64,000 bases of DNA from an uncultured Gammaproteobacteria bacterium (GTDB lineage: Bacteria; Patescibacteriota; Microgenomatia; Levybacterales; GWA1-39-11). Numbering within the stretch: the stretch's first letter is position 1; the number at the start of each line of letters is the position of its first letter. Location of the stretch: the NCBI GenBank assembly GCA_964452165.1, contig CAYVKP010000001.1, positions 1,715-65,714 of the forward strand, read 5' to 3'. The position numbers and the translations under genes are program-made. Shown one piece after another: positions 2,688-29,756 of the stretch. The notes under the pieces are model-generated. The model saw nothing but the letters and a program-made list of their open reading frames with translations, had not been told where the DNA came from and did not search any database.

Positions 2688-2761
2688 TCCACAGGCTGCC
2701 TGCCCGAGCGAAGCGAGGGGTTGCCACTCACAACTTGCCAGCAGTATAATATACAGTTGCC

Positions 2762-3346: not shown

Positions 3347-3364
3347 GCCTAGACTACCCATTAA

Positions 3365-3634
3365 TTATCTAATATGAACTCCAAACATCCGAATATTAGA
3401 AAGCTCTCCATTGGTTAAGATTGAAAAAAAGGATAAAATCAGATGCAAGACTACCAATGCTACAGTAAATATTATCCAGCGTTTAGCCCAGTAAAATCTT
3501 CTACGCTTTGTGTCAAGAAATATTGAAACGGGAAGTCCTATGATCGATACAACAAAGGCCGGAGGAATAATAAACGACCAAAATATAAAGAAGTAACCCA
3601 AGAGAGGGCTAGAAGAAAAAGCCTGAATATACAT
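3365..3634 (-). CDS. small hypothetical membrane protein
   Basis: 89-aa ORF with three predicted TM segments. Confidence 0.35.
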   Translation of the reverse strand: MYIQAFSSSPLLGYFFIFWSFIIPPAFVVSIIGLPVSIFLDTKRRRFYWAKRWIIFTVALVVLHLILSFFSILTNGELSNIRMFGVHIR

Positions 3635-3639
3635 ATCTA

Positions 3640-4557
3640 CTATTGGTCCATTAAGTATTTTTCAACTTCCAGGGCGGCCATGCAGCCAAATCCTGCGGCG
3701 GTTACTGCTTGTTTGTAAGTATAATCGTGGACGTCTCCTGCAACAAAAACACGATCAATATTTGTCTTTGTGTGTTCGCGGATTTTGATGAAACCCTTCT
3801 CATCCGTCTCGATTCCTTTGAAAATTGCCGAGTTTGGAATGTGGCCAATAGCAACAAATACTCCATCGATTGGCATTTCAGATTCCTCTCCTGTTTGAGT
3901 ATTTTTTAGCTTTACTTTTTCAACTTTCATCTCACCAAGGATCTCAGCAATTTCTGTATTGTAGATTATTTTAATTTTAGAATTTTCCTTCACTCTTTTT
4001 TGCATAATCTCCGAAGCCCTGAAAGAATCGCGTCTGTGAATAAGTGTCACTTGATCGGTATATTTTGTCATGACAAGTGCCTCTTCCATAGCAGAATCTC
4101 CTCCACCTACAACAATAACTCGCTTGTTACGGAAAAATGCGCCGTCACAAGGCGCGCAAGTGGAAACTCCGCGACCAATCTTCTCCTTTTCTCCTGGCAC
4201 ATCGAGCCATTTTGTATCTGCACCCGTTGCAATAATGACAGTTTTACCCTGATATTCCTTGTCGTCATCGGCCTTAATCTTAATTGGGGTTGAATTGTAG
4301 TCTGCCTCTTTAAAGTCTATATCTAGAATTGTTGCGCCGTGGTGTTCTGCCTGTTTGCGCATTTGCGTCATAAGATCCGGTCCCTGAATCCCCTCAGGAA
4401 ACCCGGGAAAATTCTCAACCAGGGTCGTCAATTGGAGTTGTCCTCCCCATTTTCTACCACCAATAATCAAAGTTTTAAGATTGGCACGGGTTGTATAAAT
4501 TGCTGCAGTGAGTCCTGCGGGTCCAGAACCGATGATAATTACGTCGTATAGGTCCAT
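3640..4557 (-). CDS. trxB: thioredoxin-disulfide reductase
   Basis: FAD-binding GSGPAG motif, redox-active CAPCDG, NADPH-binding GGGDSA. 305 aa. Confidence 0.9.
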   Translation of the reverse strand: MDLYDVIIIGSGPAGLTAAIYTTRANLKTLIIGGRKWGGQLQLTTLVENFPGFPEGIQGPDLMTQMRKQAEHHGATILDIDFKEADYNSTPIKIKADDDKEYQGKTVIIATGADTKWLDVPGEKEKIGRGVSTCAPCDGAFFRNKRVIVVGGGDSAMEEALVMTKYTDQVTLIHRRDSFRASEIMQKRVKENSKIKIIYNTEIAEILGEMKVEKVKLKNTQTGEESEMPIDGVFVAIGHIPNSAIFKGIETDEKGFIKIREHTKTNIDRVFVAGDVHDYTYKQAVTAAGFGCMAALEVEKYLMDQ

Positions 4558-4564
4558 GTGGGGC

Positions 4565-4888
4565 TTACGAAGATAAAGCGGCGTCTATATTCTTCTTGAA
4601 TGTCTCTTTCGCCTGGACTCCAATCATTGTGCTTTCGGGCTTTCCGTTCTTAAAGATCATTATTGTTGGAATAGACATAACGCCATACTGTCCGGCTATT
4701 TGATTTGCATCAACATCCATTTCTGTAACCTTGATCTTATCGCCGTATTCTTCTGCAAGCTCGTGGACGAGGGGCCTTACCATCTTGCAGGGTTGGCACC
4801 ACTCTGCCCAAAAATCTACCAAGACCGGCGTATTACTTTTTAATACTTCTTGTTCGAAAGTTGCGTCTGTGAGGGTTACGACTGACAT
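4565..4888 (-). CDS. trxA: thioredoxin
   Basis: 107 aa with WCQPCK active site (a CQPC variant of CGPC). Immediately upstream of trxB. Confidence 0.85.
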   Translation of the reverse strand: MSVVTLTDATFEQEVLKSNTPVLVDFWAEWCQPCKMVRPLVHELAEEYGDKIKVTEMDVDANQIAGQYGVMSIPTIMIFKNGKPESTMIGVQAKETFKKNIDAALSS

Positions 4889-4973
4889 AGGAGTAACAGT
4901 ATATTACATTGTAATTTAAAGTGTCAACTAATAATTTGTTGACTTTAAATTAGATTACTGAAATACTAAAATC

Positions 4974-5330
4974 ATGAGCACAAGATCAAAAAATTCATCT
5001 TCGAATATACTTGCTTCTGCATTTTCGTTCGCCTGTATATTGATAAGTGTAGTAACTATCGCATTAGCAATTCTCGCAATATATCCAGCTGTTAGCATGA
5101 TCTCGTTTGGCTACAGCAATTACTATATATATCTTCTATTGTCAGTTGCTGGAATTTTTTTTGGTTCCATAAATATTTTTCTCATCGTCAAAAAGGTAAA
5201 TATTATTTTTATAGTAATTTGCACTTTTTTATGTTTATGCTTTGGGTTTACTTGTTTGAATATTCTCATTCTAGCTTTAGGTATCTTTGGACCTTCAGGA
5301 ATGAAAATTCCCGACAACTCCTCAATTTAA
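4974..5330 (+). CDS. hypothetical membrane protein
   Basis: 118-aa ORF with 3-4 TM helices. Confidence 0.4.
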   Translation: MSTRSKNSSSNILASAFSFACILISVVTIALAILAIYPAVSMISFGYSNYYIYLLLSVAGIFFGSINIFLIVKKVNIIFIVICTFLCLCFGFTCLNILILALGIFGPSGMKIPDNSSI

Positions 5331-5444
5331 AGAAATTACCCTGAAGAATGACCATAAAGAGTAAATTGTATTTTTTAAACACCAGATTTGAGAAAGCCTA
5401 ACAATAGGCTTTCTCATAAATTCGGCTCTCATTACAAAATTAAG

Positions 5445-5885
5445 CTATTTATAGTAGGATTTGATTTGGAATAAGATGTAGAAAGCAATTGCTGCTCCAA
5501 CAAGTCCTCCAAGTGATAAGGAAACTACGTTTGAAACAACGTTTACTACCTCACTCCAAAATAAAAATGTCCAACCGGACATTTTGTGAGCCTTGGTTCC
5601 AGGAAAGGAAGCCAAAAGCAATGCGCTTGAAACTAAGAAAAGGAGTGATCCAATTACGCCATTACCCGCTTGTCCGACTCCTGCTCCGAGAGCAACAAAA
5701 GGAGCCAGGAATGTAAGAATTCCAAAAGCTGCAACCGCTGTCACAACTCCTAAAATTCCAAAGACTAATGATATCCAGGGTGTAATTTTTACTATAACTT
5801 CAGTCCAATTTTTTGGTAACGGTGGAAGCTTTTTAAATTGTACCTCCATCATTTCTATTAATTGATTTGCGTCTGTTTTTGCCAT
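5445..5885 (-). CDS. hypothetical membrane protein
   Basis: 146-aa ORF with multiple TM helices (GILGVVTAVAAFGILTFLAPFVALGAG). Confidence 0.45.
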   Translation of the reverse strand: MAKTDANQLIEMMEVQFKKLPPLPKNWTEVIVKITPWISLVFGILGVVTAVAAFGILTFLAPFVALGAGVGQAGNGVIGSLLFLVSSALLLASFPGTKAHKMSGWTFLFWSEVVNVVSNVVSLSLGGLVGAAIAFYILFQIKSYYK

Positions 5886-5943
5886 TTTTTTTCACCTCCT
5901 CTCGAGTTTCTATCAATATACCAAAATGAGGCGTGCGAAGCAA

Positions 5944-7347
5944 TTAGAACGTGAGTCCAAGTTGGGTTTTGTCTTGATCCGAATTGCCTTCTGTCTCCTC
6001 ATCCCATATAGCAACTTTTCCGTATTCGCCGTCAAATCCGGGAACTATTTTTATGTTACGGGCGCGGACTTTTCCAATACCTTGCGCCACCTTGTCTCCG
6101 GCAACGGCTCTAATCTCTGATAGATCTACGCGGAAAAGAACTTCGTGCTCTGACCCAAAGTGGTTTACGAGTCTATCAAAAACGGTCAAGACTGTTGCTG
6201 TTGCGACTCCGGAATTAAGGCTTTCTGATAAGACCTCTAGTAGTGGGACGAGCGAGACATAGGGAGGCTTTTTATTCTCAGGATCTTTTTGCCATACTAC
6301 GCCAAATTTATCCTGTTCAGGCCTGAAATTATTTGCTGGGGTATTTGCCAACACCTCTACTCTATTCATAACCCCAACGGTCAGAGGTTTGTGACAAACA
6401 GGGCAGATTGTACCGCGACTTTTATCTTCATCTGGTGAATAAGAAACTTTACAAAGTCTGTGCCCTGTATAGTGATATTTACCTTCTTCAGGATAAAATT
6501 CGATAGTGTAGGCTATCTCAAACACACGCTCGCGACCCCTAACAAACGAGTTGAGAATGTTATCGTACGTAATGTCTTCCATTTTGATTTTTGGATTTTG
6601 ATTTTTGGATTTTAAAACGGTTGCTTCTCGTCCCATTTTTTCAAGCGAGTGAGCATCAGAAAAAGAGACTATCGAACGAGTCGCAAGCTCATTTATTCGC
6701 CAGTTCATTGCAGGATCGCTTGATAAACCCGTTTCGATTGCAAAAATATACTTTGTGTACTCCCCAAAACAATCTTGGATCCTGTCGTATCCGGAGCGAG
6801 AACCGTAAAGTGAGAACCAGGGGGTCCAGATGTGACAAGGAATAATCGCGATCTTTTTATCTATACCGTAAACTATTTCTGCCAGTTGCTTTGAGGTTAG
6901 TCCCAGTATTGGCCGCCCGTCAGATGAAAGATTTATCCCTCGCCTTGTGAGCTCCGCGTTAATTTTTGCCGCAGTCTCAAAGTTGGGAGAGAAAATTAAG
7001 TTGTGAATCCTGTGCGGGACCCCATTTTCAGTATAAATTGCCGCAACTTCTGTTGATAACATAAAATACGGCCCTAAAAAATCTTTCTGTGAAAGCTCCC
7101 CAAGTTGCGCTTCTGCATTTTTTTTATCTTTGAGGCGATAAATCCCAGAATTAATCTCCTCCAGCTGAGATTGTGCCTCACGAAACCAAATTGGGTGAGT
7201 AAAATCGGCGACTGATAGGATATTTATCCCCTTCTTGCGTCCCCAAATATACATATTTGTAAGATTCATTTTTTGAGATACTGCGCGAGAAAATCTTGAA
7301 TGTATGTGGAGGTCTAAAACGAGTTCCATTTGGAACTCATTAAACAT
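5944..7347 (-). CDS. PHP-domain protein, endonuclease Q (EndoQ)-like
   Basis: N-terminal DLHIHSRFS PHP metal-binding motif and a C-terminal CPVCHK zinc-finger-like motif. Length and architecture resemble archaeal/CPR EndoQ family proteins. Confidence 0.55.
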   Translation of the reverse strand: MFNEFQMELVLDLHIHSRFSRAVSQKMNLTNMYIWGRKKGINILSVADFTHPIWFREAQSQLEEINSGIYRLKDKKNAEAQLGELSQKDFLGPYFMLSTEVAAIYTENGVPHRIHNLIFSPNFETAAKINAELTRRGINLSSDGRPILGLTSKQLAEIVYGIDKKIAIIPCHIWTPWFSLYGSRSGYDRIQDCFGEYTKYIFAIETGLSSDPAMNWRINELATRSIVSFSDAHSLEKMGREATVLKSKNQNPKIKMEDITYDNILNSFVRGRERVFEIAYTIEFYPEEGKYHYTGHRLCKVSYSPDEDKSRGTICPVCHKPLTVGVMNRVEVLANTPANNFRPEQDKFGVVWQKDPENKKPPYVSLVPLLEVLSESLNSGVATATVLTVFDRLVNHFGSEHEVLFRVDLSEIRAVAGDKVAQGIGKVRARNIKIVPGFDGEYGKVAIWDEETEGNSDQDKTQLGLTF

Positions 7348-7384
7348 GAAATGTTATTAAGTTTCAAGGTGTTATAATTGAGGG

Positions 7385-7666
7385 GTGCAAAGCGTATCTG
7401 ACGTTCTTAAAAAGTTTAACCCCATTGAAGATAAATATATTAGCCGTGAATTTCAATCTTATGGAATATATTTATCGGAAGAACTTAATGACTACAAGCA
7501 CAAATCTCTTTATATAAAGCTTGCAAAAACGGTTCACCGTTCTATACTTGATAAGGCCTTGTCATACTGCAAAGATGCAAGAACCGACACTCCCAACAAA
7601 GGCGCCCTCTTTATGTGGAAGATGAAACAATTGAAAGATGAGAACAAGCAAAAAACAAACAAGTAA
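7385..7666 (+). CDS. hypothetical protein (93 aa)
   Basis: ORF only. Its 3' end overlaps the next gene's 5' end in another frame. Confidence 0.3.
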   Translation: MQSVSDVLKKFNPIEDKYISREFQSYGIYLSEELNDYKHKSLYIKLAKTVHRSILDKALSYCKDARTDTPNKGALFMWKMKQLKDENKQKTNK

Positions 7667-7961
7667 AGCCTTTGATAAGGTATATAAATTACTTCGAACC
7701 GTTCCAAGGGGAAAAGTTACAACGTATGGCGCAATTGGCAAAAAATTGAACATGAGCCCGCGTGTCGTGGGCTTTGCGCTTCATGCCAATCCCGATTCTG
7801 ACAATAATCCTTGTCACAGAGTAGTAAACCGTGAAGGAAGACTTGCGCCCGGCTTTGCTTTTGGAGGAACTGGCGCACAAAAACAATTACTTGAACAAGA
7901 AAGAGTGGAATTTATTGACTCAAACCACGTAGATCTTCAGAAATACTTCTTTGGATTTTAA
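7638..7961 (+). CDS. MGMT-family DNA-binding domain protein (methylated-DNA-protein-cysteine methyltransferase C-terminal-like)
   Basis: HTH region plus the PCHRVV motif characteristic of the O6-alkylguanine alkyltransferase active site. Confidence 0.65.
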   Translation: MRTSKKQTSKAFDKVYKLLRTVPRGKVTTYGAIGKKLNMSPRVVGFALHANPDSDNNPCHRVVNREGRLAPGFAFGGTGAQKQLLEQERVEFIDSNHVDLQKYFFGF

Positions 7962-8008
7962 AAGTCCGAACAAAAAGGCAAGAAAAAACCCGCCGAAGCG
8001 GGTCATTG

Positions 8009-19038: not shown

Positions 19039-19410
19039 TGACCATATTATACAGGAGTTTTTGCCAATAAAAAGGGCGGTTGAGGAAGAAAAGTGAAAAT
19101 CATCATGAAGATGAAGCAAGTAGCATAAGCTACAGGTCACGATTCTATCAAACCGCCCTTTCGAACTCAGTTCGCATTGTAAGATTCATCCCGCCGGAAA
19201 GAAGGTGAGCAAGCATGTAGCTCAGTTTCTACCCAAAGGGATATACACCTGGAAGGTGAAGGATCTTACAAAGAGTGTCTCCAGAGGAGACAGGTACAAG
19301 GCAATCGCCTTGTGGTCCTGTCGTCCTCCTTCGACGCTTTGGGACGCACCTATGTGGTCCGGCTGGCAGCTAGGCTGTCAGACGTACGACATCAGGCCGT
19401 GTCCGTGAGA

Positions 19411-20835
19411 TCACCTGCGGACAACCGTCGCGACCGCGGCACCGGAGATGAGGAGAACCACCATGACACCAGCAACGATGGTCCAGATCGAACTCGAGGA
19501 GGAGCTCATGGCAAGACCTGCGTCACCGGTAGCCGGTGGCTTGATCGAAGGCGTCAGCGGCGCGTCGGCGGTGTCCACGGGGCGTGGAGCCGGTTCGGAG
19601 CCGTTGTAGTAGCCGTTGATCGCGGGCGTGTCAGCGTCACCAGCGTTCGTCGTGGTGCGACCATCGAACGTCGAGGACGTAGGAATGGGCACGTTAGATG
19701 CCGAAGGTGACTGTGCGAAGGCATCGTTCGTCGAGAAGACGTTGCTACTGACGAGCGGAGCCGGACCCTGACCCGTTGCGTAGTCCTTGACGGTGACCGT
19801 GTCTGTCGCCTGAGCGTTCACAGGATCGCTAGACGCCGTGTCGGCCGTCGTGTTGGACTGGTTGACCACGTAGACAGCGATGCAGAAGCCGGAGGGGTTC
19901 TCAGGCGCAGCGCATGCGGTCTTGGAGGCGACAGCGACGATCAGCAGACACGTAGTGCCAGGTGACGCCGTAGCGCAGCCGTTGTTGGTCAGGTTGTTCG
20001 TGTTCTGGCCGGCCAGGTTCGGCAGGCTCAGGTAGTTCGCCAGGCCAGGGTTCGAAGCGCCGATGACGACGGCGTCGAGCTGGCTGAAGTTAAGCAGACC
20101 CTGTTGTACCACGGGAAGTACGCCGAGAATTCGGCCGTCGATCAGGACCGTCAAGTGAGCGTTCGGGATCGACACAGCGTCGCGGATGTCGAGAACAGCG
20201 CCGTCAGAGCCAGCGGCCGGGACGAGTGCGTTCGTGACGTCGTTGACAGAGTTGCCCCTATTCGTGGCCTTCTCGTCACCGGTGGGGCTCGTCTGGTATG
20301 CAGCGACCGTGATGGATGCCGGCAGGCCAGTAAGCCTTAACGTGGCGGTAAGGACGATGTTCGGCACGCCGAGGTAGTTCGGCAGGCTCAGGTTGTTACC
20401 CAGCGGGTAGTTGGACTCCTGGACGTTGGTCTTGCCGAGAGTCGTTCCGGGGGCCATGTTGGTGCCCGAGTTGGCCAGGTTGGCCAGGTTCAGTTGGCTA
20501 ACGACTACGTAGTCGATGCCACTGCTGGAGAACGTAACGACCTTTTCGGCGAGGAGGATACCTCCAGGATCCGATCCGGTGTAGACGTCGTGCAACGAGT
20601 TGTTCGTCTGGACGGTCGACGCCGCAATACCTGGGGTCGAGTCAGACGTTGCCGCGGCAGTAGGAGCCGGCGAAGTCCAGAAGGCCGTCAAGCCAAACAG
20701 AACTGCTACCGTTACTGCCAGGGCGAAGAGCTTTGCCAGCGACACGCGCGGAGGCGGGTCCTGATAGTTGGTTGTGTGTCTGGTTTTCACCGGACACTCC
20801 TTTCCTTGCAAGGAAATGCCTGCATTCTGCAGCAT
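19411..20835 (-). CDS. cell-surface protein with signal peptide, internal repeats and a sortase-like C-terminal sorting signal
   Basis: N-terminal TM/signal (LFALAVTVAVLFGLTAFW). Internal repeats LSLPNYLGVPNIV and LSLPNLAGQNTNN in Ala/Thr/Ser/Asn-rich sequence. The C-terminus is KPPATGDAG, then a Ser stretch, a hydrophobic helix and RR, i.e. an LPXTG-type tripartite architecture with P in place of L. Confidence 0.55.
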   Translation of the reverse strand: MLQNAGISLQGKECPVKTRHTTNYQDPPPRVSLAKLFALAVTVAVLFGLTAFWTSPAPTAAATSDSTPGIAASTVQTNNSLHDVYTGSDPGGILLAEKVVTFSSSGIDYVVVSQLNLANLANSGTNMAPGTTLGKTNVQESNYPLGNNLSLPNYLGVPNIVLTATLRLTGLPASITVAAYQTSPTGDEKATNRGNSVNDVTNALVPAAGSDGAVLDIRDAVSIPNAHLTVLIDGRILGVLPVVQQGLLNFSQLDAVVIGASNPGLANYLSLPNLAGQNTNNLTNNGCATASPGTTCLLIVAVASKTACAAPENPSGFCIAVYVVNQSNTTADTASSDPVNAQATDTVTVKDYATGQGPAPLVSSNVFSTNDAFAQSPSASNVPIPTSSTFDGRTTTNAGDADTPAINGYYNGSEPAPRPVDTADAPLTPSIKPPATGDAGLAMSSSSSSIWTIVAGVMVVLLISGAAVATVVRR

Positions 20836-20839
20836 GGGT

Positions 20840-22900
20840 TGTGAAAAGAACGTTCCTCCCTCGCACCTTGCGAGATAGATCTTAGCTCTAAGCTATCCAC
20901 TTTGTGTACGGGTGTCTTTCCGGCGTCTGTCCTCGATGCCTCCCTCGGATGAGATCACTGCTGAGAACATCAAGGGCCAGGCCTTTCAGACTTTCCCGAA
21001 CTTTCGAGATCATCCCCTTTCAGTACTGCCTCTACGGTCAGTACTCTATTTCCAAGAGCTTGCCGAAGCGGGCGGCGGATCACAAGGCTACGCGGGGTGT
21101 ACCCGTTTCAGACTCGCTCTGAGAAAGCATTGGAGGGACGCCCCTTTTCCCTACGGACCAATCCGGCACTTTGCCGAACTTAAAATGTGTTGGGACGTCC
21201 CCTGATGATTAGCAGGTCTTCGATTCAAGCGAACACGTGCCCTGCACGTAATGCGTACAAATCCGCTCGTTTTCCGTTCAGCCGAATGCGTTGACGCACG
21301 GTTGATCTTTGACCTGCTCGTGGGAGCTCACCTCATCAGGGTGGCTTCTGGTAGTGATGCACCTTGCATCTCCTTTCTATTGATAGTAATCATCTCCGAC
21401 CCGAGCACCGAGAGCAGACTTTCGTCGCTGGCTCGACAACCGGAGAGAATCCCCTTAGTGGGAGACGTCCCATTTTTACTTACCCCACAAATGCCCGTCG
21501 TAAAGACAGGTTCCTCCTTTCTGAACTAGGAGCTGGACGCGGGACGTCTCCGGCGGCAATGGGTTTAGACAGTCAATACGAACCCTCCTTTCAGGGTTAT
21601 TCAGATAAGGCTCCGGGGAGTGAGCCTGGATCTGGCTGGTGGGAGGTAGCAGCAATAGACAGGGGGACAGGACCCTGTACTCGGCGCTTACTGCTACCAG
21701 ATGGTTTGGGAGGAACCCTACCATCCTTTTCCCAAGAACGTGCAAGTCCGAGGATTTCTCCTTGGACTGGGAATGGCTATGGAGACCATGGAGCGATGGG
21801 TCCAGAGGGCCTCCTGGTTGTTAGGGCGGAGCTCTTATCCGTGTCAGTGCGTTGTAGACATTTGCACTTTCCATGGCACCCTTCCTCTTTCGAGAATGGC
21901 TGGAGATCCGGCCTCGTACGAGTGGTCGCCTCTTATGAGGACTGAGCAGCTGGCTGCAACCAGACTTTTATATCTCAGCAACGACCATAGGCTGTGCTGC
22001 CATTAGGGCGGAGAGCGTGACCGGGTCACTATGCAAACGCGTCTGTTAAGAAGCGTCCACTTCCGGTTTACCTCCACCATACTCGACTCCTCCCTTCGAG
22101 TCTTCCTAGATAAGGTCTCAGCACTAGACCTGGATCTGGCTGGCGGGGTACGGCAGCTGAAACACGAATGCGATCGTGACACCACTGCCTAAAGATGGGT
22201 TCCAAGCCATCCTTTCCCCGATGAAAAGTGCAGTCTCCTCACGATGAGAAGACGTAGTTTTCCAGGAGGTGAAGGTCTCTTCACTTGCGCAGGCCACCAC
22301 GCGAAGAGAGCTTGCACCACTAGCCTGGTGAGTGTCGTCAACCGCCATACCACAGATCGTGGTAGTCCAGCACAAGGCGGAGACAAGACAACTCCTGGAC
22401 TCATCGAGATAGCAAGATGAGCCTAATTTGCGTCATTCAAGTGGAAAGCCATTCCACAAGAAAGTTATTTTGAATAACGAACAACAATAAAATAAAACTA
22501 AAATTTGATTTTTGTAAAATCCTTAAAAAAGACTCCTTCTGGAGTGTGGGGTTGTGAATTCAGACAATAAACAAACTCGTAATTATTGCCTCAGCTCACA
22601 ACCGGACACAAGCGCTATGCAAATAAGCGCTGTCAAAAGAAGTTATGCGAACTGGTTGTTAAAGTGCAAAACTTTTTTGCCAGAACGCATGCATTTGCAT
22701 AAAGGCATTATGTTATGTAATGCGAGTATATCTCTAAGGGAATTGCTTTTCAATTGGGCATTTACTGTAGCCTGAGGGGGATTGGGCGCGGGAATAGGAT
22801 ATAGATGTTTGTCTTCTTGAAGAAGACGATGCAGTTTGACTGCTACATCAGGTCCTAAACCCGCGTCCGCACCGGTTGCGAATTTATTTGTTGTAGATCA
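20840..22900. ncRNA. candidate large structured noncoding region with an internally duplicated module (strand undetermined, possibly minus)
   Basis: No ORF longer than 193 aa in ~2 kb, and the ORFs present are scattered over frames. Two homologous ~150-nt modules start at 21603 and 22108 (shared agataagg...cctggatctggctgg...gatgg...ccatcctttcc). The hairpin ggctc/gagcc in copy 1 becomes ggtct/agacc in copy 2, with three compensatory pair changes. Also contains an 11-bp inverted repeat (21460-21471 / 21531-21541) and multiple GGGACGTCCC palindromes. Confidence 0.35.
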
Positions 22901-22904
22901 CCTC

Positions 22905-24398
22905 CTATCTTCTGGTAGGAACTTGTGTCGCAAGACACTGTCCTGTCGCGATGACGTAATAGTCGCAGTTAGTCGGCGGCTGAGGATTTCCGCTTGGCTT
23001 CTGCGGCTGGACAGGCTGTTGCTGGACCGAAGGACCCGAGTTGGCCTTGCCAACAATCTGGTACGTTGCGGTGTTGCTTACGAGCGGTGTGTTGCCGTCG
23101 TATAGCGTAATCCTAAGCGTATCAGTGCCAAGTGGCGGAGCAACATTGCCCGTCGATTGACAGCCTGTGCCGGCGTTCACGTATTTGCTGACTGGCCGAG
23201 TCGCCGGACTTCCGTCTTGGGGAGAGTCGGTAACAACTATCGTACCAGCCTGCGACACATTCCAGCAGAACTTACCACTCGTGTAGACCGTTATGACTGA
23301 TGGATCAGCCCAAACGCTCACAGTAGCGGCAGGTGGTGGAGGTGCCGGACGAGATGTCGGCGCGGGTGGTGGTGCCGCGGGCGCTTGGGGCGCAGGCGGA
23401 ACCTTGGTCGCTGTTGGCGGTGGCGCTTGAACCTGCTGAACTTGCGGAGCAGGCGTTGGCGGCGTGAACGACCCAATGTTGGGTGCTGGACCCGACTTTT
23501 TTTGAATCTCAACGGAAGTGGTGTCTACCGCGACTTTCACGTCGTCGACATATGCTACTGCAGCGATGCTGTAGATGCCAGGAATGACATTGTCGACGAT
23601 TGGAATCGTGGTGCAGGACTTTTCTTCCGAAGAATACCCATTCCACAACGGCGTTGGCTCCTCTCCTTCTCGGGAGAAAGTTGAAACTACTCTGTACCAG
23701 ATCTTCTTGTTGAGCTGGAAACAAAGAGTTGCGCGGTCTCCTTCGACGTAGACGTTCTTGCCGTCATTGAACCACACTTTTAGAGTGTAGCTGAACGGAG
23801 CAGGCGTTGATGTTGCCGTTGACGGTGCCGCCTTCACCTCAGGGTGATCGTAGTCATCCCTAAGTTGGGAGTGTAACCACCCCATCACAGGTGAAAAACG
23901 ACCCTTGGTGTCAATTATGTTCGCTGGAGAAATCTGTAGGCTGGTTTGCCATTTTTCACCAACGTTCTGCTGAACGAAGGTGATTTTTCCGTTCGCCACT
24001 CCGGTGACCAGCGCCACATGTCCCCAAGGCCACTCCTCGTTTTTCCCGAAAACGAGAATGTCTCCCGGAACAGGAGCAGTTGAAGAACCGTTTTCGTACA
24101 CGTTGGCGAAGTTAATGTTGTCCTTGTTTCCAAACATCTCAAATGCATTGAGACCCCAGTTGTAAGGACCCCATTCTCTCTCGCCCCAGTAACGCTGAAC
24201 GAATTCGACGCACTGCCACTCAATACCGTACTTTGACGAACGTCCGGAGTAGTAAAACGGGTCATCTCCGTTGGAGAAGATGTCCGTTTTGTCGTAGGTT
24301 CCAAGACGCTGTCCGAATGACGACGACGCCATAACGATACCTACGAAAATGAGGGGGCTCAATCCCAGAAGGACTGCAGCCCTGACTAACCTGATCAT
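22905..24398 (-). CDS. secreted CHAP-domain peptidoglycan hydrolase with Ig-like middle region, Pro-rich linker and Cys-containing C-terminal domain
   Basis: Signal peptide (MIRLVRAAVLLGLSPLIFVGIVMA). CHAP catalytic Cys context WQCVEFVQRYW and His GHVALV. A ~45-residue P/A/Q-rich linker and a C-terminal domain of ~130 aa with 4 Cys. GC-rich codon usage. Confidence 0.7.
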   Translation of the reverse strand: MIRLVRAAVLLGLSPLIFVGIVMASSSFGQRLGTYDKTDIFSNGDDPFYYSGRSSKYGIEWQCVEFVQRYWGEREWGPYNWGLNAFEMFGNKDNINFANVYENGSSTAPVPGDILVFGKNEEWPWGHVALVTGVANGKITFVQQNVGEKWQTSLQISPANIIDTKGRFSPVMGWLHSQLRDDYDHPEVKAAPSTATSTPAPFSYTLKVWFNDGKNVYVEGDRATLCFQLNKKIWYRVVSTFSREGEEPTPLWNGYSSEEKSCTTIPIVDNVIPGIYSIAAVAYVDDVKVAVDTTSVEIQKKSGPAPNIGSFTPPTPAPQVQQVQAPPPTATKVPPAPQAPAAPPPAPTSRPAPPPPAATVSVWADPSVITVYTSGKFCWNVSQAGTIVVTDSPQDGSPATRPVSKYVNAGTGCQSTGNVAPPLGTDTLRITLYDGNTPLVSNTATYQIVGKANSGPSVQQQPVQPQKPSGNPQPPTNCDYYVIATGQCLATQVPTRR

Positions 24399-24403
24399 GA
24401 CCT

Positions 24404-24973
24404 TTACTCCTTCTCGAATTTGAAGGTACTCAGGATTTGAGGTCCGATTCCCTTCATGATATTGAACGTAGCGGATTGGCTCGGCGAAATGCCGTAAAGC
24501 CTACTACCTTCTTGAATGAACCACCTGACGTAGACAGGGTGGACGTCCGGCTGTTCAAGCCAACGCTTCTGGTTAGTAAGTTCGAGACAGCTTCCGCTTG
24601 TCAGCGTGAAGGAACAAGGGGAGAAAACCAGGCGCTTGCCCGCATCCCCGAGTTGGTCTCTAACTGAAGCCTCTACGTCGTTAGCTGATGCCACCTTTTC
24701 GTATCGAATGACAGCAAAGCCTGCGTACAACTCGCCGTCGTTCTCAAATTCCAGGTGCAAGATGTTGCCCGGATCTGTCTCGTACGTATCCTTGTGGAGA
24801 TCGAGATCCTTGATCTTTCCCGAAAGCCACCCGTCCTGGAAGTCTTCCCAGTCCGCAGTACTTGCGGTAGCCGGAATGACTGGCAGGGTAGATACTGGCT
24901 TCTTGGTCGAGCCTCCGCATGCTGCGAGCAGTGGAAGCACTAGGAGCAGTAATACCGAGACTGTCTGTCTCAC
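24404..24973 (-). CDS. lipoprotein (hypothetical)
   Basis: Lipobox LLAACGGS after a hydrophobic leader. 189 aa. Co-directional and 5 nt upstream of the CHAP gene, so a probable operon. Confidence 0.5.
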   Translation of the reverse strand: MRQTVSVLLLLVLPLLAACGGSTKKPVSTLPVIPATASTADWEDFQDGWLSGKIKDLDLHKDTYETDPGNILHLEFENDGELYAGFAVIRYEKVASANDVEASVRDQLGDAGKRLVFSPCSFTLTSGSCLELTNQKRWLEQPDVHPVYVRWFIQEGSRLYGISPSQSATFNIMKGIGPQILSTFKFEKE

Positions 24974-25391
24974 TTCGCACCTCTACCTTCCGTAGTCTAT
25001 TCGTGCTAGGTTGATATTCGACCCTGCTGGGTCTTGTGCTTTACCTTGTTTTATTTTCGTCGTCGTTCTCCTTTTTTAAATTCCGCTTCTTGGCGGAAAC
25101 TATCGTGCGTATTTTGTTTAGTCTTCTTTCGGCCGAATGCAAAATTCCGGACCCGAACTTTTTATCTGGTCAAGAACTTTGCATTCGATAAACACCTTGC
25201 TTTATAGTGCTTTCTGAAAGAAGTTTCGCAACCGGTTGTTAAAGAGCGAAAAACCTCGCGCTACAATGCATGCAAACGCACTAAGCCACGAGGAATTACT
25301 ATGTAATTGGAGTATAACGCCGTCTGAGACGGTTTTCAACTTAACACTATAAGATTTCTTTGCCCGTATTTTGAGCGAATGTGAAGGCTAT

Positions 25392-25595
25392 CTACGTTTT
25401 ACCCCACGTTACGCGGTTCCATACCCTTTCATGTAGGTAATAAAAGACTAACTTCAAAATTCCTTCGGCGCCTCCAACTCCGATTGAAAGAAGTAATTTA
25501 CGCGTGAAGACGAAAACAACCGCTGCTGTAGTAAGTGAAGCAATAATTCTCCAAGTAATAGTTTTGGCAACGCTGCGGTGGCTCTCCTCCTTCAT
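25392..25595 (-). CDS. small membrane protein, DUF2061-like
   Basis: 67 aa with two TM segments and a C-terminal YYLHERVWN-type motif, from recalled family similarity. Overlaps the stop of the upstream ATPase gene by 1 nt. Confidence 0.4.
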   Translation of the reverse strand: MKEESHRSVAKTITWRIIASLTTAAVVFVFTRKLLLSIGVGGAEGILKLVFYYLHERVWNRVTWGKT

Positions 25596-27811
25596 TAAAA
25601 TTGAGCTTTCCTACCGTAGCGCTCTTTGGAGTAACGAATAATCGCATCACGGTTTTCATTCTTAACATTTGGAAGCGGCAAGGTGGTTGCAGGGAAAGGC
25701 GCTGAGGTCATTCCGTCAATTGAAAGCTTTAAAACTATTTCAAATTTGCCAAGGGATACTAGGTCATTTTCGGTGTAAATCTCCGCATATTCCTTTGTAA
25801 GTCGCTCCGCATCTTGTGCACCGACAACAAAAGACATAAGAGTTCCGACATTTCCATAAATTGCATATTGAATCTCCTCCTCAAGCTGATCCGAATATTG
25901 ATTTGCTAAAGTCAAAGACAAGCGATATTTTCGTGCTTCGGATAGAATTTTAATGAAAGAGCTGGTTGCAAAATTTTGGAACTCATCAACGTATAGGAAA
26001 AAGTCACGTCTACTCTCCTCTTTCTGAAAAGATCTATTCATTGCAGCAAGCTGAATTTGGGTGATAACCATTGCTCCAAGAAGTGCCGCGTTATCCTCTC
26101 CTAATTTTCCCTGTGATAAATTAAGAATCAAGATTTTTCCTTCGTCCATTATCTCCTGAAGATTAATTGAAGAAGTGGGGTGGCCAATAATGTTACGGAT
26201 CATTTTTGATGAGACAAATTGTCCTACCTTGTTTTGGATTGGAGAAACAGCCTCAGCCTTTAGCTTATCCGGCATCCTGGCAAACTCAGCTTCCCAGAAA
26301 TTCTTGAGAACCGGGTCTGATAGTTTTGCAACAATTCTTGCACGAAACGCATCGTCTGATAATATTCTCAACGCGTCAATTAGAGTACCCTCCTCAACGT
26401 CGAGAAGGGTCAAAATAACATTTCGCAAGATATATTCAAGGCGCGGACCCCAAGATTCTCCATAAATCTTGTGGAAGATCGAGACAATTCCCGATGAGAC
26501 CAAGTCTTTATGCTGAGAATTACGAACCTCCAAAACGTTTAGCGAGAACGGGCGCTCGGCATCAAAAGGCTCCAGATAAACTACGTCATTGAGTCGTCTC
26601 TTTGGAATGTAATCCATAATAATCTCCGATAAATCTCCGTGAGGGTCAATGATTCCAATTCCGCGGTCTTTGCGAATATCGTCAATTGCCATGTTGGCAA
26701 TTAAAGTGGATTTTCCGGCTCCGGTTTTTCCAATAACGTAAACGTGTTTTCTCCTGTCGGGCGTTTTTATTCCAAAAATTGTTTCGGCATTTTTGAATTC
26801 GGTTTTTGCAAAAAAGTTGATATCCTTCTTTTCTTCTTCGGTAATGGCAGTTATAACCGGAAGATCTTCGGGTGGTTCTCCAAGAAGAGTCTTACCCCAA
26901 GCAATATTCTTAACCCCGGCAAGCAAGAATCCTGTGGGGTGCCAAATGGTTGCGAGTTCCTGAGCATTTAATATCTGTGTGCGCTTTTCAAGATAATAGG
27001 TTGAACGGTTTTTAATCCTTTCAATAAAGTTTTTCTTGCGGATAAGCGGACGCTTCAACTCAAATTCATTTCCGTCACCGTGAGAGAATATTCCAAACGT
27101 TCCCGCAAGATTTCGCAGATATAATCTTGGATCTGTATTTTCCGTACCTACAACTAGACGAATAAGCGCTTTTCCTCCTTGAAATGAGGCTTTTTGCATG
27201 ATTAAAAGTTGTTGTGGATCGCGGGCGTATCTGGCCGTTTCGGTACTATGTGCTTCAACCCCGGCCGTAGCAGGAGAAGTATGGGAGTCTGTTCCTGCAA
27301 GTATCATTTGCCCTGCTCGTTTTACGGCCCTTGCCTGCCAATCAAAAGACGCTGAGGTTACAAGAATCTCAACAGCCATTTTAACGTCTGCCGGCTGTTT
27401 TGCTAAGAATCCGATCAGCGCGCCTAAGGTATCTATGTCTTCAAAGTCGGCATAAGTCTTTGTTGGAAGATAAAATTCGTTATCCAGAACCAATTGACCT
27501 ACTGATATGTGCTTGCTGTCAAAAACTTTTGGCATAGGGTCCTCGGTTTTTTCAATTGATGAGGTTGGAAAAGAGGCTGCAATTTGGCTTGCGACAAAAG
27601 TCTCCTGATCTTCATCGGCCGTTACATAGAAGTAGACCGTTTGATTGATTAGAAAAATTTCGAATGAATAATAATGTGTTTTCATCCATGATCTTTTCCA
27701 GAAGGGAACATATGCATGCGATAAGCAGGAAGCAAAAATCTGTGCTGCTGAAGCAATTGGAGTCTCATCGTCCTTAGGATTTCTGACTAAAAGATGTACC
27801 AGTTTTCTCAT
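25595..27811 (-). CDS. FtsK/HerA-superfamily ATPase, TraG/VirD4 (TraD)-like or DUF87 type IV-secretion-related protein
   Basis: Walker A GKTGAGKST, Walker B FLYVDEFQNF. 738 aa with a long N-terminal region lacking TM helices and a C-terminal TraG-D_C-like region. Confidence 0.55.
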   Translation of the reverse strand: MRKLVHLLVRNPKDDETPIASAAQIFASCLSHAYVPFWKRSWMKTHYYSFEIFLINQTVYFYVTADEDQETFVASQIAASFPTSSIEKTEDPMPKVFDSKHISVGQLVLDNEFYLPTKTYADFEDIDTLGALIGFLAKQPADVKMAVEILVTSASFDWQARAVKRAGQMILAGTDSHTSPATAGVEAHSTETARYARDPQQLLIMQKASFQGGKALIRLVVGTENTDPRLYLRNLAGTFGIFSHGDGNEFELKRPLIRKKNFIERIKNRSTYYLEKRTQILNAQELATIWHPTGFLLAGVKNIAWGKTLLGEPPEDLPVITAITEEEKKDINFFAKTEFKNAETIFGIKTPDRRKHVYVIGKTGAGKSTLIANMAIDDIRKDRGIGIIDPHGDLSEIIMDYIPKRRLNDVVYLEPFDAERPFSLNVLEVRNSQHKDLVSSGIVSIFHKIYGESWGPRLEYILRNVILTLLDVEEGTLIDALRILSDDAFRARIVAKLSDPVLKNFWEAEFARMPDKLKAEAVSPIQNKVGQFVSSKMIRNIIGHPTSSINLQEIMDEGKILILNLSQGKLGEDNAALLGAMVITQIQLAAMNRSFQKEESRRDFFLYVDEFQNFATSSFIKILSEARKYRLSLTLANQYSDQLEEEIQYAIYGNVGTLMSFVVGAQDAERLTKEYAEIYTENDLVSLGKFEIVLKLSIDGMTSAPFPATTLPLPNVKNENRDAIIRYSKERYGRKAQF

Positions 27812-27857: not shown

Positions 27858-29756
27858 TTAGGAAGCGTTGGAAGAACTTTTTCTTTTTGTAACTTTCTTT
27901 TGTACGCCATCTTTCATGATTGAATCAAATTCTTCCCCATCCAAGGTCTCTTTTGAAAGAAGTGTTGCTGCGACTACATCGAGTTTGGGCTTATTTGATT
28001 TAAGTATTTTCTGAGCTCTTGCATATGCTTCATCCATGATTTTTCTAATTTCAGTATCAATTTTTGACTGCATACTTTCGGAAATCTGAGAGTTCTCGCC
28101 GTACATTCTTTCTCGCTCCACATCATAATTAACGGGTCCAAGACCACTCATTCCATATTCAATAACCATGGTTCTTGCAACCTCTGTGGCTTTTTGAATA
28201 TCATCTGATGCTCCGGTTGTCATTTCTGAAAAAATTAATTCTTCCGCCGCTCTTCCTCCAAGCATTGTTGCAATAGTCTCAAGAAGTCTGGTTCTGGTCT
28301 CATGCACCCGGTCCTGCGCGGGCGGAATAAGTGTGTGACCAAGCGAAAGGCCACGACCCACAATTGAGATCCTGTGAACCGGATCGGCTTTTGGTGAGTA
28401 GTAAGAAACGATTGCATGACCTGACTCGTGATATGCAGTAATTCTTTTGTCGTCCTCTGACTGCATACGTTTTTTTTCAGGTCCCATCTTTACTTTTGTT
28501 GCCGCCTCCTCAAGATCGGTCATGTCAATCTGTTTTTTTCCAAGACGGGCAGCTAAAATTGCTGCTTCATTGAGCATATTTTCAAGATCGGCGCCGGAAT
28601 ATCCCACAGTGCGTCTTGCAACTCTTTCCCAATTAACTTCTTTTGTGAAAGGTTTTCCTTTTGCATGGATTTGAAGTATAGATTTTCTTCCTTCAATGTC
28701 CGGAAGCTGAAGCATAATTCTTCTATCAAACCTGCCAGGACGAACAAGCGCTGAATCTAAAATATCCGGACGATTTGTGGCTGCAATTACAACGAGTTGC
28801 TCATTTGGAGTAAAACCGTCCATTTCAACCAAGATCTGATTTAGGGTTTGTTCGCGCTCGTCGTGTCCTCCCATGATTCCGACTCCTCGTTGACGTCCGA
28901 TTGCATCAACTTCATCAATAAAAATTATTGCAGGTTGGCTTTTTTTAGCGGTTGTAAAAAGGTCACGGACACGAGCGGCTCCAACTCCTACCAACATTTC
29001 CATAAATTCTGATCCTGCAATTGAAATAAACGGAACCTGTGCCTCTCCTGCTACGGCTCGGGCGAGCAATGTTTTTCCGGTTCCCGATGGCCCAACGAGC
29101 AAAACCCCTTTTGGCGTACGTGCTCCCATTGCGCGATATTTCTCAGGGTGTTTTAGAAAATCTACAACCTCGGACATTTCTTGTTTTGCTTCATCTACTC
29201 CCGCAACGTCTGCAAAAACGGTTTTAGGAAAATCCTTATTAAAGGTTTTTCCCTTATTTGATCCGAAAGAAAAAATATTTTCCTGTGCGCCTCTGGCTTG
29301 ACGGAAAATAAAATAGAAGAAAATAATTATCAAGACAACCGGAAGAAATGAGGAGATTAGATTAACCCAGGTATTTAAAGTCGCATCATCTTTTACATTA
29401 ATCTTGACTGAGCTTGGGTCAATACTTGAGTTCTTAAGGACTTCAAACAGGGATACGTTTGCTTCTTTTCTTGAAATTGCAGCTTTACCGTCTTTATATT
29501 TAATGTCTATTTTTGTGTCTGAAACATCAATCTGGCTAACTTTCTTGCTTTTTATATCCTGAACAAGTTTTGAAATTGGAACTTCTTGTCCTCCTTGAGT
29601 TGACGCAAAATCTCCAATTCCCATGACGATAAATAACAAAAAGAAGAAAAGAAATCCGTATAGAAGAAGGTCTTTCCAGGTGAATTTGAAGCCAACTTTA
29701 ACCTTTTTGAAGTTTTTTTGCCTGCCGTTCATTAGAGTTCGAAAATTATAACACAA
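27858..29756 (-). CDS. ftsH: ATP-dependent zinc metalloprotease FtsH
   Basis: N-terminal TM helices, AAA Walker [12 protein letters not shown] region, and zinc-binding HESGHAIV. Confidence 0.9.

What the first reader, a model, noticed from the sequence alone, without database searches (positions are those of the whole stretch)
25392..27811. DUF2061-like membrane gene coupled to a TraG/VirD4-like (or DUF87) ATPase at the island's right border
A 738-aa FtsK/HerA-superfamily ATPase (Walker A GKTGAGKST, Walker B LYVDEF, TraG-D_C-like C-terminus) has a long N-terminal region without TM helices. It overlaps by 1 nt a 67-aa two-TM protein. Coupling-protein-like ATPases mark conjugative or DNA-translocation systems. 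Its position directly beside the compositionally foreign island raises the possibility that the island arrived with, or is mobilised by, a DNA-transfer module. Alternatively this is part of the CPR-typical DNA-uptake apparatus.
Basis: partly seen in the sequence, partly recalled or inferred. Interest (0 to 1): 0.5.

Follow-up and report, generated by a model that had tools for sequence, protein, structure and literature searches.

The report
Core CPR coupling-protein-like ATPase, not island-borne
The 738-aa gene is the chromosomal, vertically inherited VirD4/TrwB-like ATPase found in nearly all Patescibacteria, here with a soluble VirB4-like N-terminal domain; it did not arrive with, and shows no sign of mobilising, the GC-rich segment beside it.

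Summary
Both ORFs exist exactly as described: a 738-aa P-loop ATPase (25595-27811, minus strand) whose stop overlaps by 1 nt the start of a 67-aa DUF2061 membrane protein (25392-25595).

It is not island-associated:
- Its GC and GC3 match the host genome.
- Orthologues at 45-87% identity occur in at least 596 species-level CPR genomes.
- It evolves as slowly as FtsH.
- In related Levybacteria it keeps the order TrpRS-acylphosphatase-YidD-FtsH-ATPase-[variable slot]-5'-3' exonuclease.
- The neighbourhoods hold housekeeping genes. No integrase or relaxase was found.

The GC-rich "island" fills a slot that is also GC-rich in relatives and encodes surface proteins and a CHAP hydrolase.

DUF2061 is absent next to the ATPase in all 86 related loci examined, so that coupling is private to this genome.

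In 9 of 81 related loci the orthologue lies head-to-head with a PrgI(VirB3)/VirB4 cluster. Distant full-length relatives on actinobacterial and Bacillus plasmids sit inside conjugation modules.

The most likely role is a motor or receptor ATPase of the patescibacterial type IV secretion system. This is a known family whose function is unresolved.

The parts
25595..27811 (-). 738-aa VirD4/TrwB-like (T4CP-like) ATPase gene. Native composition; core gene of Microgenomates-type CPR.
   Evidence: ORF. Pfam and NCBIfam. Only PDB sequence hit is TrwB. Orthologues. GC 0.417, GC3 0.376.
26807..27811 (-). N-terminal domain, residues 1-335 (Pfam DUF8128). Soluble, with a VirB4/TrwK N-terminal-domain-like fold.
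25598..26806 (-). Motor module, residues 336-738: P-loop nucleotide-binding domain with an inserted all-alpha domain.
   Evidence: TrwB_AAD_bind matches residues 353-653. TrwB aligns to 343-645. Foldseek hits to TrwB, DotL, Cag-beta, HerA and VirB4.
26705..26731 (-). Walker A motif, GKTGAGKST (residues 361-369).
   Evidence: Most positions are invariant and A365 nearly invariant in 26 orthologues.
25979..25996 (-). Walker B motif, LYVDEF (residues 606-611).
   Evidence: VDEF invariant and LY nearly invariant in orthologues.
26144..26518 (-). Predicted all-alpha insertion (about residues 432-556), corresponding to the AAD of T4CPs.
   Evidence: Helices 432-556 in the AF2 model, block pLDDT 74-90.
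25392..25595 (-). 67-aa DUF2061 small membrane protein. Its start overlaps the ATPase stop by 1 nt. Lineage-specific.
   Evidence: Pfam E 2.6e-17. Nearest homologue only 61% identical. Absent from 86 related loci. Homologues lie in unrelated contexts.
24974..25391 (.). Intergenic region of native GC (0.42) between DUF2061 and the GC-rich segment. Holds a 34-nt patch (25215-25247) that is 91% identical to the sequence just downstream of the ATPase in L001.
19141..24973 (-). Context, not part of the ATPase system: the GC-rich variable slot between the ATPase and the 5'-3' exonuclease. It holds a 189-aa secreted or lipoprotein-like protein, a 497-aa CHAP hydrolase, about 2 kb without ORFs, and a 474-aa anchored surface protein.
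27858..29756 (-). Context: FtsH, the conserved upstream neighbour, 46 bp from the ATPase start.

Best explanation
The 738-aa gene encodes the chromosomally fixed, 'orphan' type IV coupling-protein-like ATPase typical of Patescibacteria. It has two parts.
- A TrwB/VirD4-type motor (P-loop nucleotide-binding domain with an inserted all-alpha domain).
- A soluble N-terminal domain (DUF8128) with the fold of the VirB4 N-terminal domain, in place of the usual transmembrane anchor.

Shown here: it is a native, vertically inherited, strongly conserved core gene of Microgenomates-type CPR. It sits in a housekeeping gene run (TrpRS-acylphosphatase-YidD-FtsH-ATPase). The GC-rich segment next to it fills a variable slot between this gene and the 5'-3' exonuclease gene, and that segment encodes surface and cell-wall proteins, not mobility functions.

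Inferred: the protein forms a hexameric ATPase that docks through its VirB4-like N-domain onto the membrane platform of the patescibacterial, monoderm-type T4SS (PrgI/VirB3-like, VirB4 and partners), which would be encoded elsewhere in the genome. There it would act as substrate receptor or motor. The substrate (DNA, protein or other host-derived macromolecules) is unknown.

The DUF2061 gene is a lineage-specific small membrane-protein gene at the start of the variable slot. Its 1-nt overlap implies co-translation in this genome, but it is not a conserved partner.
For: Family assignment.
- T4CP HMMs score above their cutoffs.
- The only PDB sequence hit is TrwB, over residues 343-645.
- Fold hits go to TrwB, DotL, Cag-beta, HerA and VirB4.

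Core-gene status.
- 2820 homologues were found, at 67-87% identity across Levybacteria in the 120 best listed.
- At least 596 species genomes carry full-length relatives.
- Identity to relatives equals or exceeds that of flanking housekeeping genes. In L001: ATPase 85%, FtsH 78%, TrpRS 61%. In L030: 60%, 73%, 61%.
- Composition is native.
- Synteny is conserved. In L030 the exonuclease follows the ATPase directly, with a 61-bp interval.

Link to the T4SS.
- In 9 of 81 loci the orthologue is divergently adjacent to PrgI-like, a 218-aa protein, VirB4-like (P-loop_TraG/AAA_10/CagE) and an M23 peptidase. PrgI is the most frequent upstream-neighbour family.
- Full-length relatives at 23-28% identity on Embleya and Bacillus plasmids sit in the order PrgI-VirB4-like-T4CP-replication/relaxation-NlpC/P60 or beside TcpE modules.

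Literature.
- 5,713 VirD4-type T4CP homologues occur in 2,918 of 3,035 Patescibacteria genomes, and only 148 lie near virB4. Relaxases are rare (PMC12102498).
- A class of T4CPs lacking a TMD is already recognised (PMC7434980).
Against: - No T4SS gene lies within the 64-kb window, and the rest of the genome could not be inspected.
- Most orthologues (about 72 of 81 loci) are not next to T4SS genes.
- According to PMC12102498, T4CP homologues occur in more genomes than VirB4 does (2,918 against 2,417). The paper also reports that the T4CP homologue of Southlakia epibionticum was not essential for epibiotic growth although other T4SS genes were, and it raises exaptation as a possibility.
- The N-domain's similarity to VirB4 is structural only. 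Profile-profile comparisons with CPR VirB4 and with the 218-aa (possibly TrsD-like) neighbour were not significant. No PDB sequence hit was found for the N-domain.
- The full-length AF2 model is of only moderate quality (pLDDT 66).
Confidence: 0.7

Rival explanations
1. T4SS-independent housekeeping motor. The ATPase has been exapted as a cytoplasmic DNA (or other polymer) translocase or helicase, in the manner of HerA or FtsK. It might work with nucleases or repair enzymes such as the 5'-3' exonuclease that ancestrally follows it.
For: - T4CP homologues are more widespread than VirB4, usually lie far from it, and are dispensable in Southlakia (PMC12102498).
- The protein is soluble, with no TM segment.
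- It matches DUF87/HerA in Pfam and in fold searches.
- In L030 the gene is followed directly by the 5'-3' exonuclease on the same strand (61-bp interval), and Fpg lies nearby.
- Downstream neighbours elsewhere include UDG, RadA-like and Rho proteins.
- It is conserved at housekeeping level.
Against: - There is no HAS-barrel; the N-domain matches the VirB4 NTD instead.
- No NurA-like partner was found.
- The exonuclease adjacency is limited to one Levybacteria subclade (6 loci), and variable DNA is inserted between the two genes in most of them.
- The only recurrent functionally coherent neighbours are T4SS genes.
- The closest non-CPR full-length relatives lie in conjugation modules.
Confidence: 0.22
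2. One reading: the ATPase (with DUF2061) is the coupling protein of a conjugative or mobilisable element, and the adjacent GC-rich island arrived with it or is mobilised by it.
For: - It has T4CP-type domains.
- It lies about 400 bp from a compositional boundary.
- Distant relatives do sit on plasmids next to replication-relaxation proteins.
- The slot downstream of the gene is variable. In one strain (L004) it carries MGE-like genes: HTH_17, an N6_N4 methyltransferase and ResIII.
Against: - The gene has host composition.
- It is orthologous and syntenic across Levybacteria whether the slot is empty (L030) or filled.
- It is present in at least 596 species genomes in housekeeping contexts.
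- The segment holds no integrase, relaxase, T4SS or replication gene. It holds only a CHAP hydrolase, a secreted 189-aa protein, an anchored surface protein and ORF-less DNA.
- The same slot is GC-rich in relatives, and their surface proteins share termini with the window's orf474. The segment is therefore not a recent arrival tied to this gene.
Confidence: 0.03
3. DUF2061 is the membrane tether of this TMD-less coupling ATPase, analogous to TraI/TraJ of pIP501 or to TraJ-TraG pairs, at least in this genome.
For: - The 1-nt stop/start overlap implies coupled translation.
- DUF2061 is a two-helix membrane protein.
- TMD-less T4CPs are known to pair with small membrane proteins encoded next to them (PMC7434980).
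Against: - DUF2061 is absent next to the ATPase in every one of 86 related loci, including the 85%-identical L001.
- No DUF2061 appears among the 25 most frequent families of 149 downstream neighbours.
- Its nearest homologue is only 61% identical, against 87% for the ATPase.
- Its homologues lie beside TrmD or UDG/Fpg genes.
- A 34-nt patch that follows the ATPase in L001 follows DUF2061 in the window, which fits an insertion.
Confidence: 0.08

Closest known systems
VirD4-type T4CP homologues of Patescibacteria (Quinonero-Coronel et al. 2025, PMC12102498)
   Same: Same phylum-wide family. These genes are chromosomal, usually far from virB4, not accompanied by relaxases, about two copies per genome, and annotated 'type IV secretion system DNA-binding domain-containing protein'.
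   Different: Nothing essential differs; the window protein is a member. In the passages searched the paper did not describe the N-terminal DUF8128 domain or its VirB4-NTD-like fold.
TrwB (R388) / VirD4 coupling proteins
   Same: P-loop NBD with an inserted all-alpha domain. TrwB is the only PDB sequence hit (E 7.6e-4, residues 343-645). Foldseek TM-score normalised to the target is 0.50-0.55. Pfam TrwB_AAD_bind and T4SS-DNA_transf score above their cutoffs.
   Different: The window protein has no N-terminal transmembrane domain, but a 335-aa soluble domain instead. There is no adjacent relaxase or T4SS. It is a core chromosomal gene rather than plasmid- or ICE-borne.
VirB4 / TrwK (R388 T4SS)
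   Different: VirB4 HMMs are not matched (CagE_TrbE_VirB and AAA_10 absent; TIGR00929 14 bits against a cutoff of 643). A separate bona fide VirB4-like gene lies next to orthologues. Sequence profiles of the N-domains are not detectably related.
TMD-less T4CPs of Gram-positive plasmids (TraJ of pIP501, with membrane partner TraI)
   Same: A coupling ATPase without a membrane anchor, from a monoderm-type system. The paradigm of a small membrane partner encoded next door applies (PMC7434980).
   Different: The candidate partner here (DUF2061) is not conserved. Direct homology to TraJ of pIP501 was not tested.
T4CP-like proteins of Embleya/Streptomyces and Bacillus plasmids, next to replication-relaxation proteins
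   Same: Full-length similarity that includes the N-domain (query residues 20-735, 23-28% identity). They belong to monoderm T4SS gene sets with PrgI, a VirB4-like ATPase, TcpE and NlpC/P60.
   Different: They are plasmid-borne and sit beside a putative relaxase. The Embleya protein has an N-terminal hydrophobic segment. Similarity is distant.
HerA (archaeal/bacterial DNA-end-resection helicase; defence-system HerA)
   Same: The DUF87 central domain is matched, and HerA appears among the fold hits.
   Different: There is no HAS-barrel and no NurA, SIR2 or DUF4297 partner. NCBIfam HerA scores 16 bits against a cutoff of 970. PADLOC HerA hits are weak and restricted to the P-loop.

Membership tests
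Type IV coupling protein (VirD4/TrwB/TraG/TraD) | P-loop NBD with Walker A and Walker B motifs | tested here: met
   GKTGAGKST at residues 361-369 and LYVDEF at 606-611. Largely invariant in orthologues.
Type IV coupling protein (VirD4/TrwB/TraG/TraD) | Significant match to T4CP profile HMMs | tested here: met
   PF10412 scores 32 bits (cutoff 20.5) and PF02534 25.7 bits (cutoff 20.1). PF12696 scores 21.4 bits, just under its cutoff of 22. Specific NCBIfam equivalogs (CD1115, TraD) score far below their cutoffs, so it belongs to none of those subfamilies.
Type IV coupling protein (VirD4/TrwB/TraG/TraD) | All-alpha domain inserted in the NBD | tested here: met
   AF2 helices at about 432-556 between the core strands, pLDDT 74-90. 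The TrwB alignment spans NBD and AAD.
Type IV coupling protein (VirD4/TrwB/TraG/TraD) | N-terminal transmembrane domain (typical, but absent in a recognised TMD-less subclass) | tested here: not met
   Maximum KD19 is 1.18 and no segment reaches 1.6. 72 of 81 orthologues also show no hydrophobic segment, and only two have one near the N-terminus.
Type IV coupling protein (VirD4/TrwB/TraG/TraD) | Genetic linkage to a T4SS (VirB4) and/or a relaxase | tested here: inconclusive
   None in the 64-kb window. 9 of 81 orthologous loci are adjacent to a PrgI/VirB4 cluster.
Type IV coupling protein (VirD4/TrwB/TraG/TraD) | Hexameric, DNA- or substrate-dependent ATPase that recruits substrates to the channel | not testable with these tools
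   Requires biochemistry or genetics.
VirB4 | VirB4-type N-terminal domain | tested here: met
VirB4 | Match to VirB4 sequence models (PF03135, PF12846/PF19044, TIGR00929) | tested here: not met
   Not among the Pfam hits. TIGR00929 scores 14 bits against a cutoff of 643. A distinct VirB4-like protein carrying these domains lies beside orthologues.
HerA | HAS-barrel N-domain and a NurA (or defence effector) partner | tested here: not met
   The N-domain's best match is the VirB4 NTD. The neighbours are FtsH and DUF2061. NF040819 scores 16 bits against a cutoff of 970.
DUF2061 (PF09834) | Match above the Pfam gathering score; small protein with two hydrophobic helices | tested here: met
   63.4 bits against a cutoff of 23.1, covering the whole 52-position profile. 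Hydrophobic stretch at residues 12-43.
Integrative conjugative / mobilisable element | Integrase or relaxase, T4SS genes, and bounded insertion next to or including the ATPase | tested here: not met
   No such domains in island ORFs. No tRNA at the borders. The ATPase has native composition and is syntenic. Direct repeats or att sites were not searched for.

The most novel reading that the evidence does not exclude
DUF8128 ATPases would form a distinct class of coupling ATPase that combines a VirB4-type N-terminal docking domain with a VirD4/TrwB-type motor and has no membrane anchor. That would make them an evolutionary intermediate between VirB4 and T4CPs, or a fusion of the two.

This class has been fixed as a core, housekeeping-rate gene across Microgenomates-type CPR. 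It would power a relaxase-independent function essential to the epibiotic lifestyle, such as T4SS-mediated import or export of host macromolecules, or a T4SS-independent nucleic-acid transaction.
Probability: 0.25. Interest if true: 0.6.

Novelty: new member of a known kind. Interest (0 to 1): 0.3.

Why it matters
As flagged, the finding is ordinary: no mobile element is marked by this gene.

The family itself remains an open problem. Nearly every Patescibacteria genome keeps one or two VirD4-like ATPases, usually far from the T4SS genes and without relaxases, and their role is unknown (PMC12102498).

This analysis adds three points:
- The Microgenomates version is soluble.
- Its N-terminal domain has a VirB4-like fold.
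- It evolves at housekeeping rates, and in some lineages it sits head-to-head with the PrgI/VirB4 cluster.

Together these give a concrete, testable docking hypothesis and assign a fold to a Pfam DUF. The analysis also reclassifies the adjacent 'foreign island' as a conserved, GC-rich, hypervariable surface-protein slot, which is relevant to host-interaction biology.

Tried and rejected
- Looking up the exact ATPase protein in the contig index gave no record. The source contig was reached through the DUF2061 protein instead.
- The afdb50 fold library was unavailable.
- Profile-profile (hhalign) comparison of the N-domain with the 218-aa protein encoded between PrgI and VirB4 (possibly TrsD-like) gave E 0.41, and with CPR VirB4-like proteins E 0.32. 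There is no sequence-level link. Only the motor domains are related (E 9e-5).
- PDB profile searches added nothing beyond TrwB. The N-domain has no sequence hit.
- Defence-system reading: PADLOC mad8 (E 2e-14) and weak HerA and DndH hits cover only the generic ATPase core, and no defence partner genes are nearby. Rejected.
- Phage reading: phrog_5156 matches strongly (E 5.8e-70) and large Bacillus phages carry relatives. However, only 4 IMG/VR contigs hold relatives, and those lack the N-domain. Rejected for this gene.
- Promoter and terminator scans around the pair gave no more sites than shuffled sequence.
- Rfam scan of the ORF-less GC-rich stretch at E<=1 gave nothing.
- A weak tblastn match of the ATPase Walker-A region to the ORF-less stretch (27-31 bits) was judged chance. 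The P-loop is not conserved there, and about 700 queries were run.
Full report
**Observation**

A 738-aa ORF lies at 25595-27811 and a 67-aa ORF at 25392-25595, both on the minus strand. The junction reads TTTTAATGAAGG, so the TAA stop and the ATG start share one base.

Walker A (GKTGAGKST, residues 361-369) and Walker B (LYVDEF, 606-611) are present and are largely invariant in 26 orthologues.

Pfam gives three families above their curated cutoffs: TrwB_AAD_bind, DUF87 and T4SS-DNA_transf. TraG-D_C falls just below its cutoff, at 21.4 bits against 22. NCBIfam gives only weak, sub-threshold hits to VirD4-like, TraD, CedD and HerA models.

The small ORF is a full-length DUF2061 (E 2.6e-17). The ATPase has no hydrophobic segment; its maximum Kyte-Doolittle 19-residue mean is 1.18.

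The compositional step lies at about 24975-25000. The pair therefore sits about 400 bp outside the GC-rich segment. Two independent Logan assemblies reproduce the junction.

**What the ATPase is**

By sequence, its only relative in the PDB is the coupling protein TrwB (E 7.6e-4, residues 343-645).

The full-length AlphaFold model is moderate (pLDDT 66). It hits TrwK/VirB4 over about 800 columns, then HerA, TrwB, DotL and Cag-beta.

Pfam labels the N-terminal third PF26449/DUF8128 on the identical database protein and its orthologues. No paper in the library mentions this DUF.

The protein therefore combines a VirB4-NTD-like soluble domain with a VirD4/TrwB-like motor that carries an all-alpha insertion at about residues 432-556.

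The N-domain similarity is structural only. Profile-profile and PDB profile searches find no sequence relationship.

**Distribution and conservation**

The protein database holds 2820 homologues at E<=1e-5 among the scored candidates. The best 120 are 67-87% identical and come mostly from Levybacteria. They are typically named 'type IV secretion system DNA-binding domain-containing protein'.

The representative library holds 6158 clusters at E<=1e-30. Many carry only the motor module, at about 50% identity, with other extensions.

A scan of one genome per species found at least 596 genomes encoding a relative. The 80 best matches kept are nearly all full-length, at 45-77% identity. They span Levy-, Roizman-, Gottesman-, Chisholm-, Woese-, Davies-, Shapiro- and Beckwithbacteria.

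This agrees with Quinonero-Coronel et al. 2025. They found 5,713 VirD4-type T4CP homologues in 2,918 of 3,035 Patescibacteria genomes, with only 148 near virB4. They found very few relaxases, and they note that the T4CP homologue of Southlakia was not essential although other T4SS genes were. The window protein is a member of this known set.

**Relation to the 'island'**

The ATPase has host composition: GC 0.417 and GC3 0.376, against 0.38-0.42 and 0.32-0.38 for flanking housekeeping genes. The segment's genes have GC3 of 0.57-0.75.

In related Levybacteria the gene order is conserved: MurD ... TrpRS-acylphosphatase-YidD-FtsH-ATPase-[slot]-5'-3' exonuclease-GT4-(NUDIX)-Fpg. The ATPase is as conserved as these neighbours (L001: 85% against FtsH 78%; L030: 60% against 73%).

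| Locus | Slot length |
|---|---|
| L030 | 61 bp |
| L008, L010 | about 2 kb |
| L001 | 2.5 kb |
| L009 | 4.1 kb |
| window | 6.4 kb (measured from the ATPase stop, so it includes DUF2061 and the 418-bp intergenic region) |

In L004 the ATPase protein is identical to that of L003/L008, yet the slot holds different, AT-rich, MGE-like genes.

The slot is GC-rich in relatives as well: 0.49-0.52, against 0.40-0.43 for the locus. There it carries a gene of about 0.61 GC for a secreted, anchored protein. That protein shares its N-terminal signal and/or C-terminal anchor with the window's 474-aa ORF, while the middle parts are unrelated.

The window's 189-aa and CHAP proteins have divergent counterparts in L001, at 38% and 48% identity. 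None of the segment's ORFs has integrase, relaxase, T4SS or replication domains.

The segment is therefore a locus-specific, hypervariable cassette of surface and cell-wall proteins. It is not something that came with, or is moved by, the ATPase.

**Neighbourhoods at large**

Clustering of up to four neighbours on each side in 81 loci shows no universal partner.

A Pfam census of 141 upstream and 149 downstream neighbours lists no integrase, transposase or relaxase among the 25 most frequent families on either side.
- Upstream: PrgI (9), FtsH/YidD (4) and glycosyltransferases.
- Downstream: YtxH (11), cytidylyltransferase (8), Rho, RadA-like proteins and MreC.

The one functionally coherent recurrent neighbour is a T4SS cluster. 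In nine loci of mainly Gottesman-type lineages the ATPase lies head-to-head with PrgI(VirB3)-like, a 218-aa protein, VirB4-like (P-loop_TraG, AAA_10, CagE_TrbE_VirB) and an M23 peptidase protein.

Distant full-length relatives (23-28% identity, N-domain included) lie on Embleya/Streptomyces and Bacillus plasmids. There they sit inside monoderm conjugation modules, in the order PrgI-VirB4-like-T4CP-replication/relaxation-NlpC/P60 or beside TcpE. The Embleya protein has an N-terminal hydrophobic segment that the CPR proteins lack.

**DUF2061**

The overlap is real, but the pairing is private to this genome.
- tblastn finds no DUF2061 in any of the 86 related loci.
- L001, whose ATPase is 85% identical, has none.
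- The nearest DUF2061 homologue anywhere is 61% identical.
- Two homologues examined lie next to TrmD or UDG/Fpg.
- A 34-nt patch that follows the ATPase in L001 follows DUF2061 in the window, which fits insertion of the small gene.

The comparative data do not support it as a conserved system.

**Mechanism**

Shown: family membership, domain architecture, core-gene status, native composition, the variable slot, and the occasional T4SS adjacency.

Inferred: a hexameric ATPase that uses its VirB4-like N-domain, in place of a TM anchor, to dock on the cytoplasmic face of the patescibacterial T4SS. From my knowledge of the R388 cryo-EM work, and not tested here, the equivalent domain of VirB4 contacts VirB3 and VirB8.

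The substrate is unknown, and relaxases are rare in the phylum.

The main rival is a T4SS-independent, HerA/FtsK-like housekeeping role. In its favour are the wider distribution of T4CP homologues than of VirB4 and the gene's dispensability in Southlakia.

**Verdict**

The family assignment is right. The mobile-element and island interpretation and the DUF2061 partnership are not supported.

This is a new member of a known but functionally unresolved family. The fold assignment of DUF8128 is a modest addition.

Noticed in passing
window 19141-24973; L008 10215-12234; L009 10209-14316; L010 6085-8220: The GC-rich 'island' occupies a slot that is GC-rich in related Levybacteria as well (0.49-0.52 against 0.40-0.43 for the locus). 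Each relative carries a gene of about 0.61 GC for a secreted, anchored protein. These share an N-terminal signal and/or C-terminal anchor with window orf474 (19411-20835, GC3 0.75) but have unrelated middles. The result is a conserved, hypervariable, compositionally odd surface-protein locus.
   Followed up: partly
window 20836-22904: About 2 kb of GC-rich (0.51-0.56) sequence with no long ORF (longest open frame 195 codons). It has no Rfam match even at E<=1. One 38-nt patch (22633-22670) is 92% identical to L009 10603-10640. It could be a decayed gene or an unknown RNA.
   Followed up: partly
L004 12221-22220 compared with L003/L008: Two assemblies encode the identical ATPase protein but differ downstream after about 1.25 kb. 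L004 carries AT-rich MGE-like genes (HTH_17, an N6_N4 DNA methyltransferase, a ResIII helicase) where L003/L008 have the exonuclease. The slot is therefore an insertion hot spot.
   Followed up: partly
L042, L045, L047, L048, L050, L052, L057, L058, L059 (about 1500-8000 in each): A compact patescibacterial T4SS core (M23-peptidase protein, VirB4-like, a 218-aa protein, PrgI-like with a CarboxypepD_reg domain) is transcribed divergently from the ATPase orthologue. Giant proteins of 1150-1350 aa with no Pfam domain lie downstream.
   Followed up: partly
window 25595-27811 product; phages H13-H22; L093-L096: phrog_5156 (unknown function) matches residues 206-737 at E 5.8e-70, and large Bacillus phages (phage G gp156, 0305phi8-36 ORF201) encode relatives. 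Four IMG/VR contigs carry a motor-only version (query residues about 300-734) at 39-53% identity. A large 'short' paralogue family with the motor at the N-terminus also appears in the representative search.
   Followed up: no
window 22905-24398 and 24404-24973 (-): A 497-aa protein has an N-terminal hydrophobic segment, a CHAP (endolysin-like) domain and long Pro/Ala/Thr-rich linkers. It is preceded by a 189-aa protein with a signal/lipobox-like N-terminus (LLAAC). L001 has divergent counterparts at 38% and 48% identity. CHAP and NlpC/P60 hydrolases are the VirB1 analogues of Gram-positive T4SSs, but this adjacency is not conserved.
   Followed up: partly
window 25215-25247; L001 12352-12385: A 34-nt intergenic patch, 91% identical, lies downstream of DUF2061 in the window and directly downstream of the ATPase in L001. 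This fits gain of DUF2061 in the window lineage, or its loss in L001.
   Followed up: no
window 1-218 (-) and 514-587 (-): The 5' end of a 23S rRNA gene runs off the left edge of the window, with tRNA-Ala(TGC) upstream of it: part of an rRNA operon.
   Followed up: no
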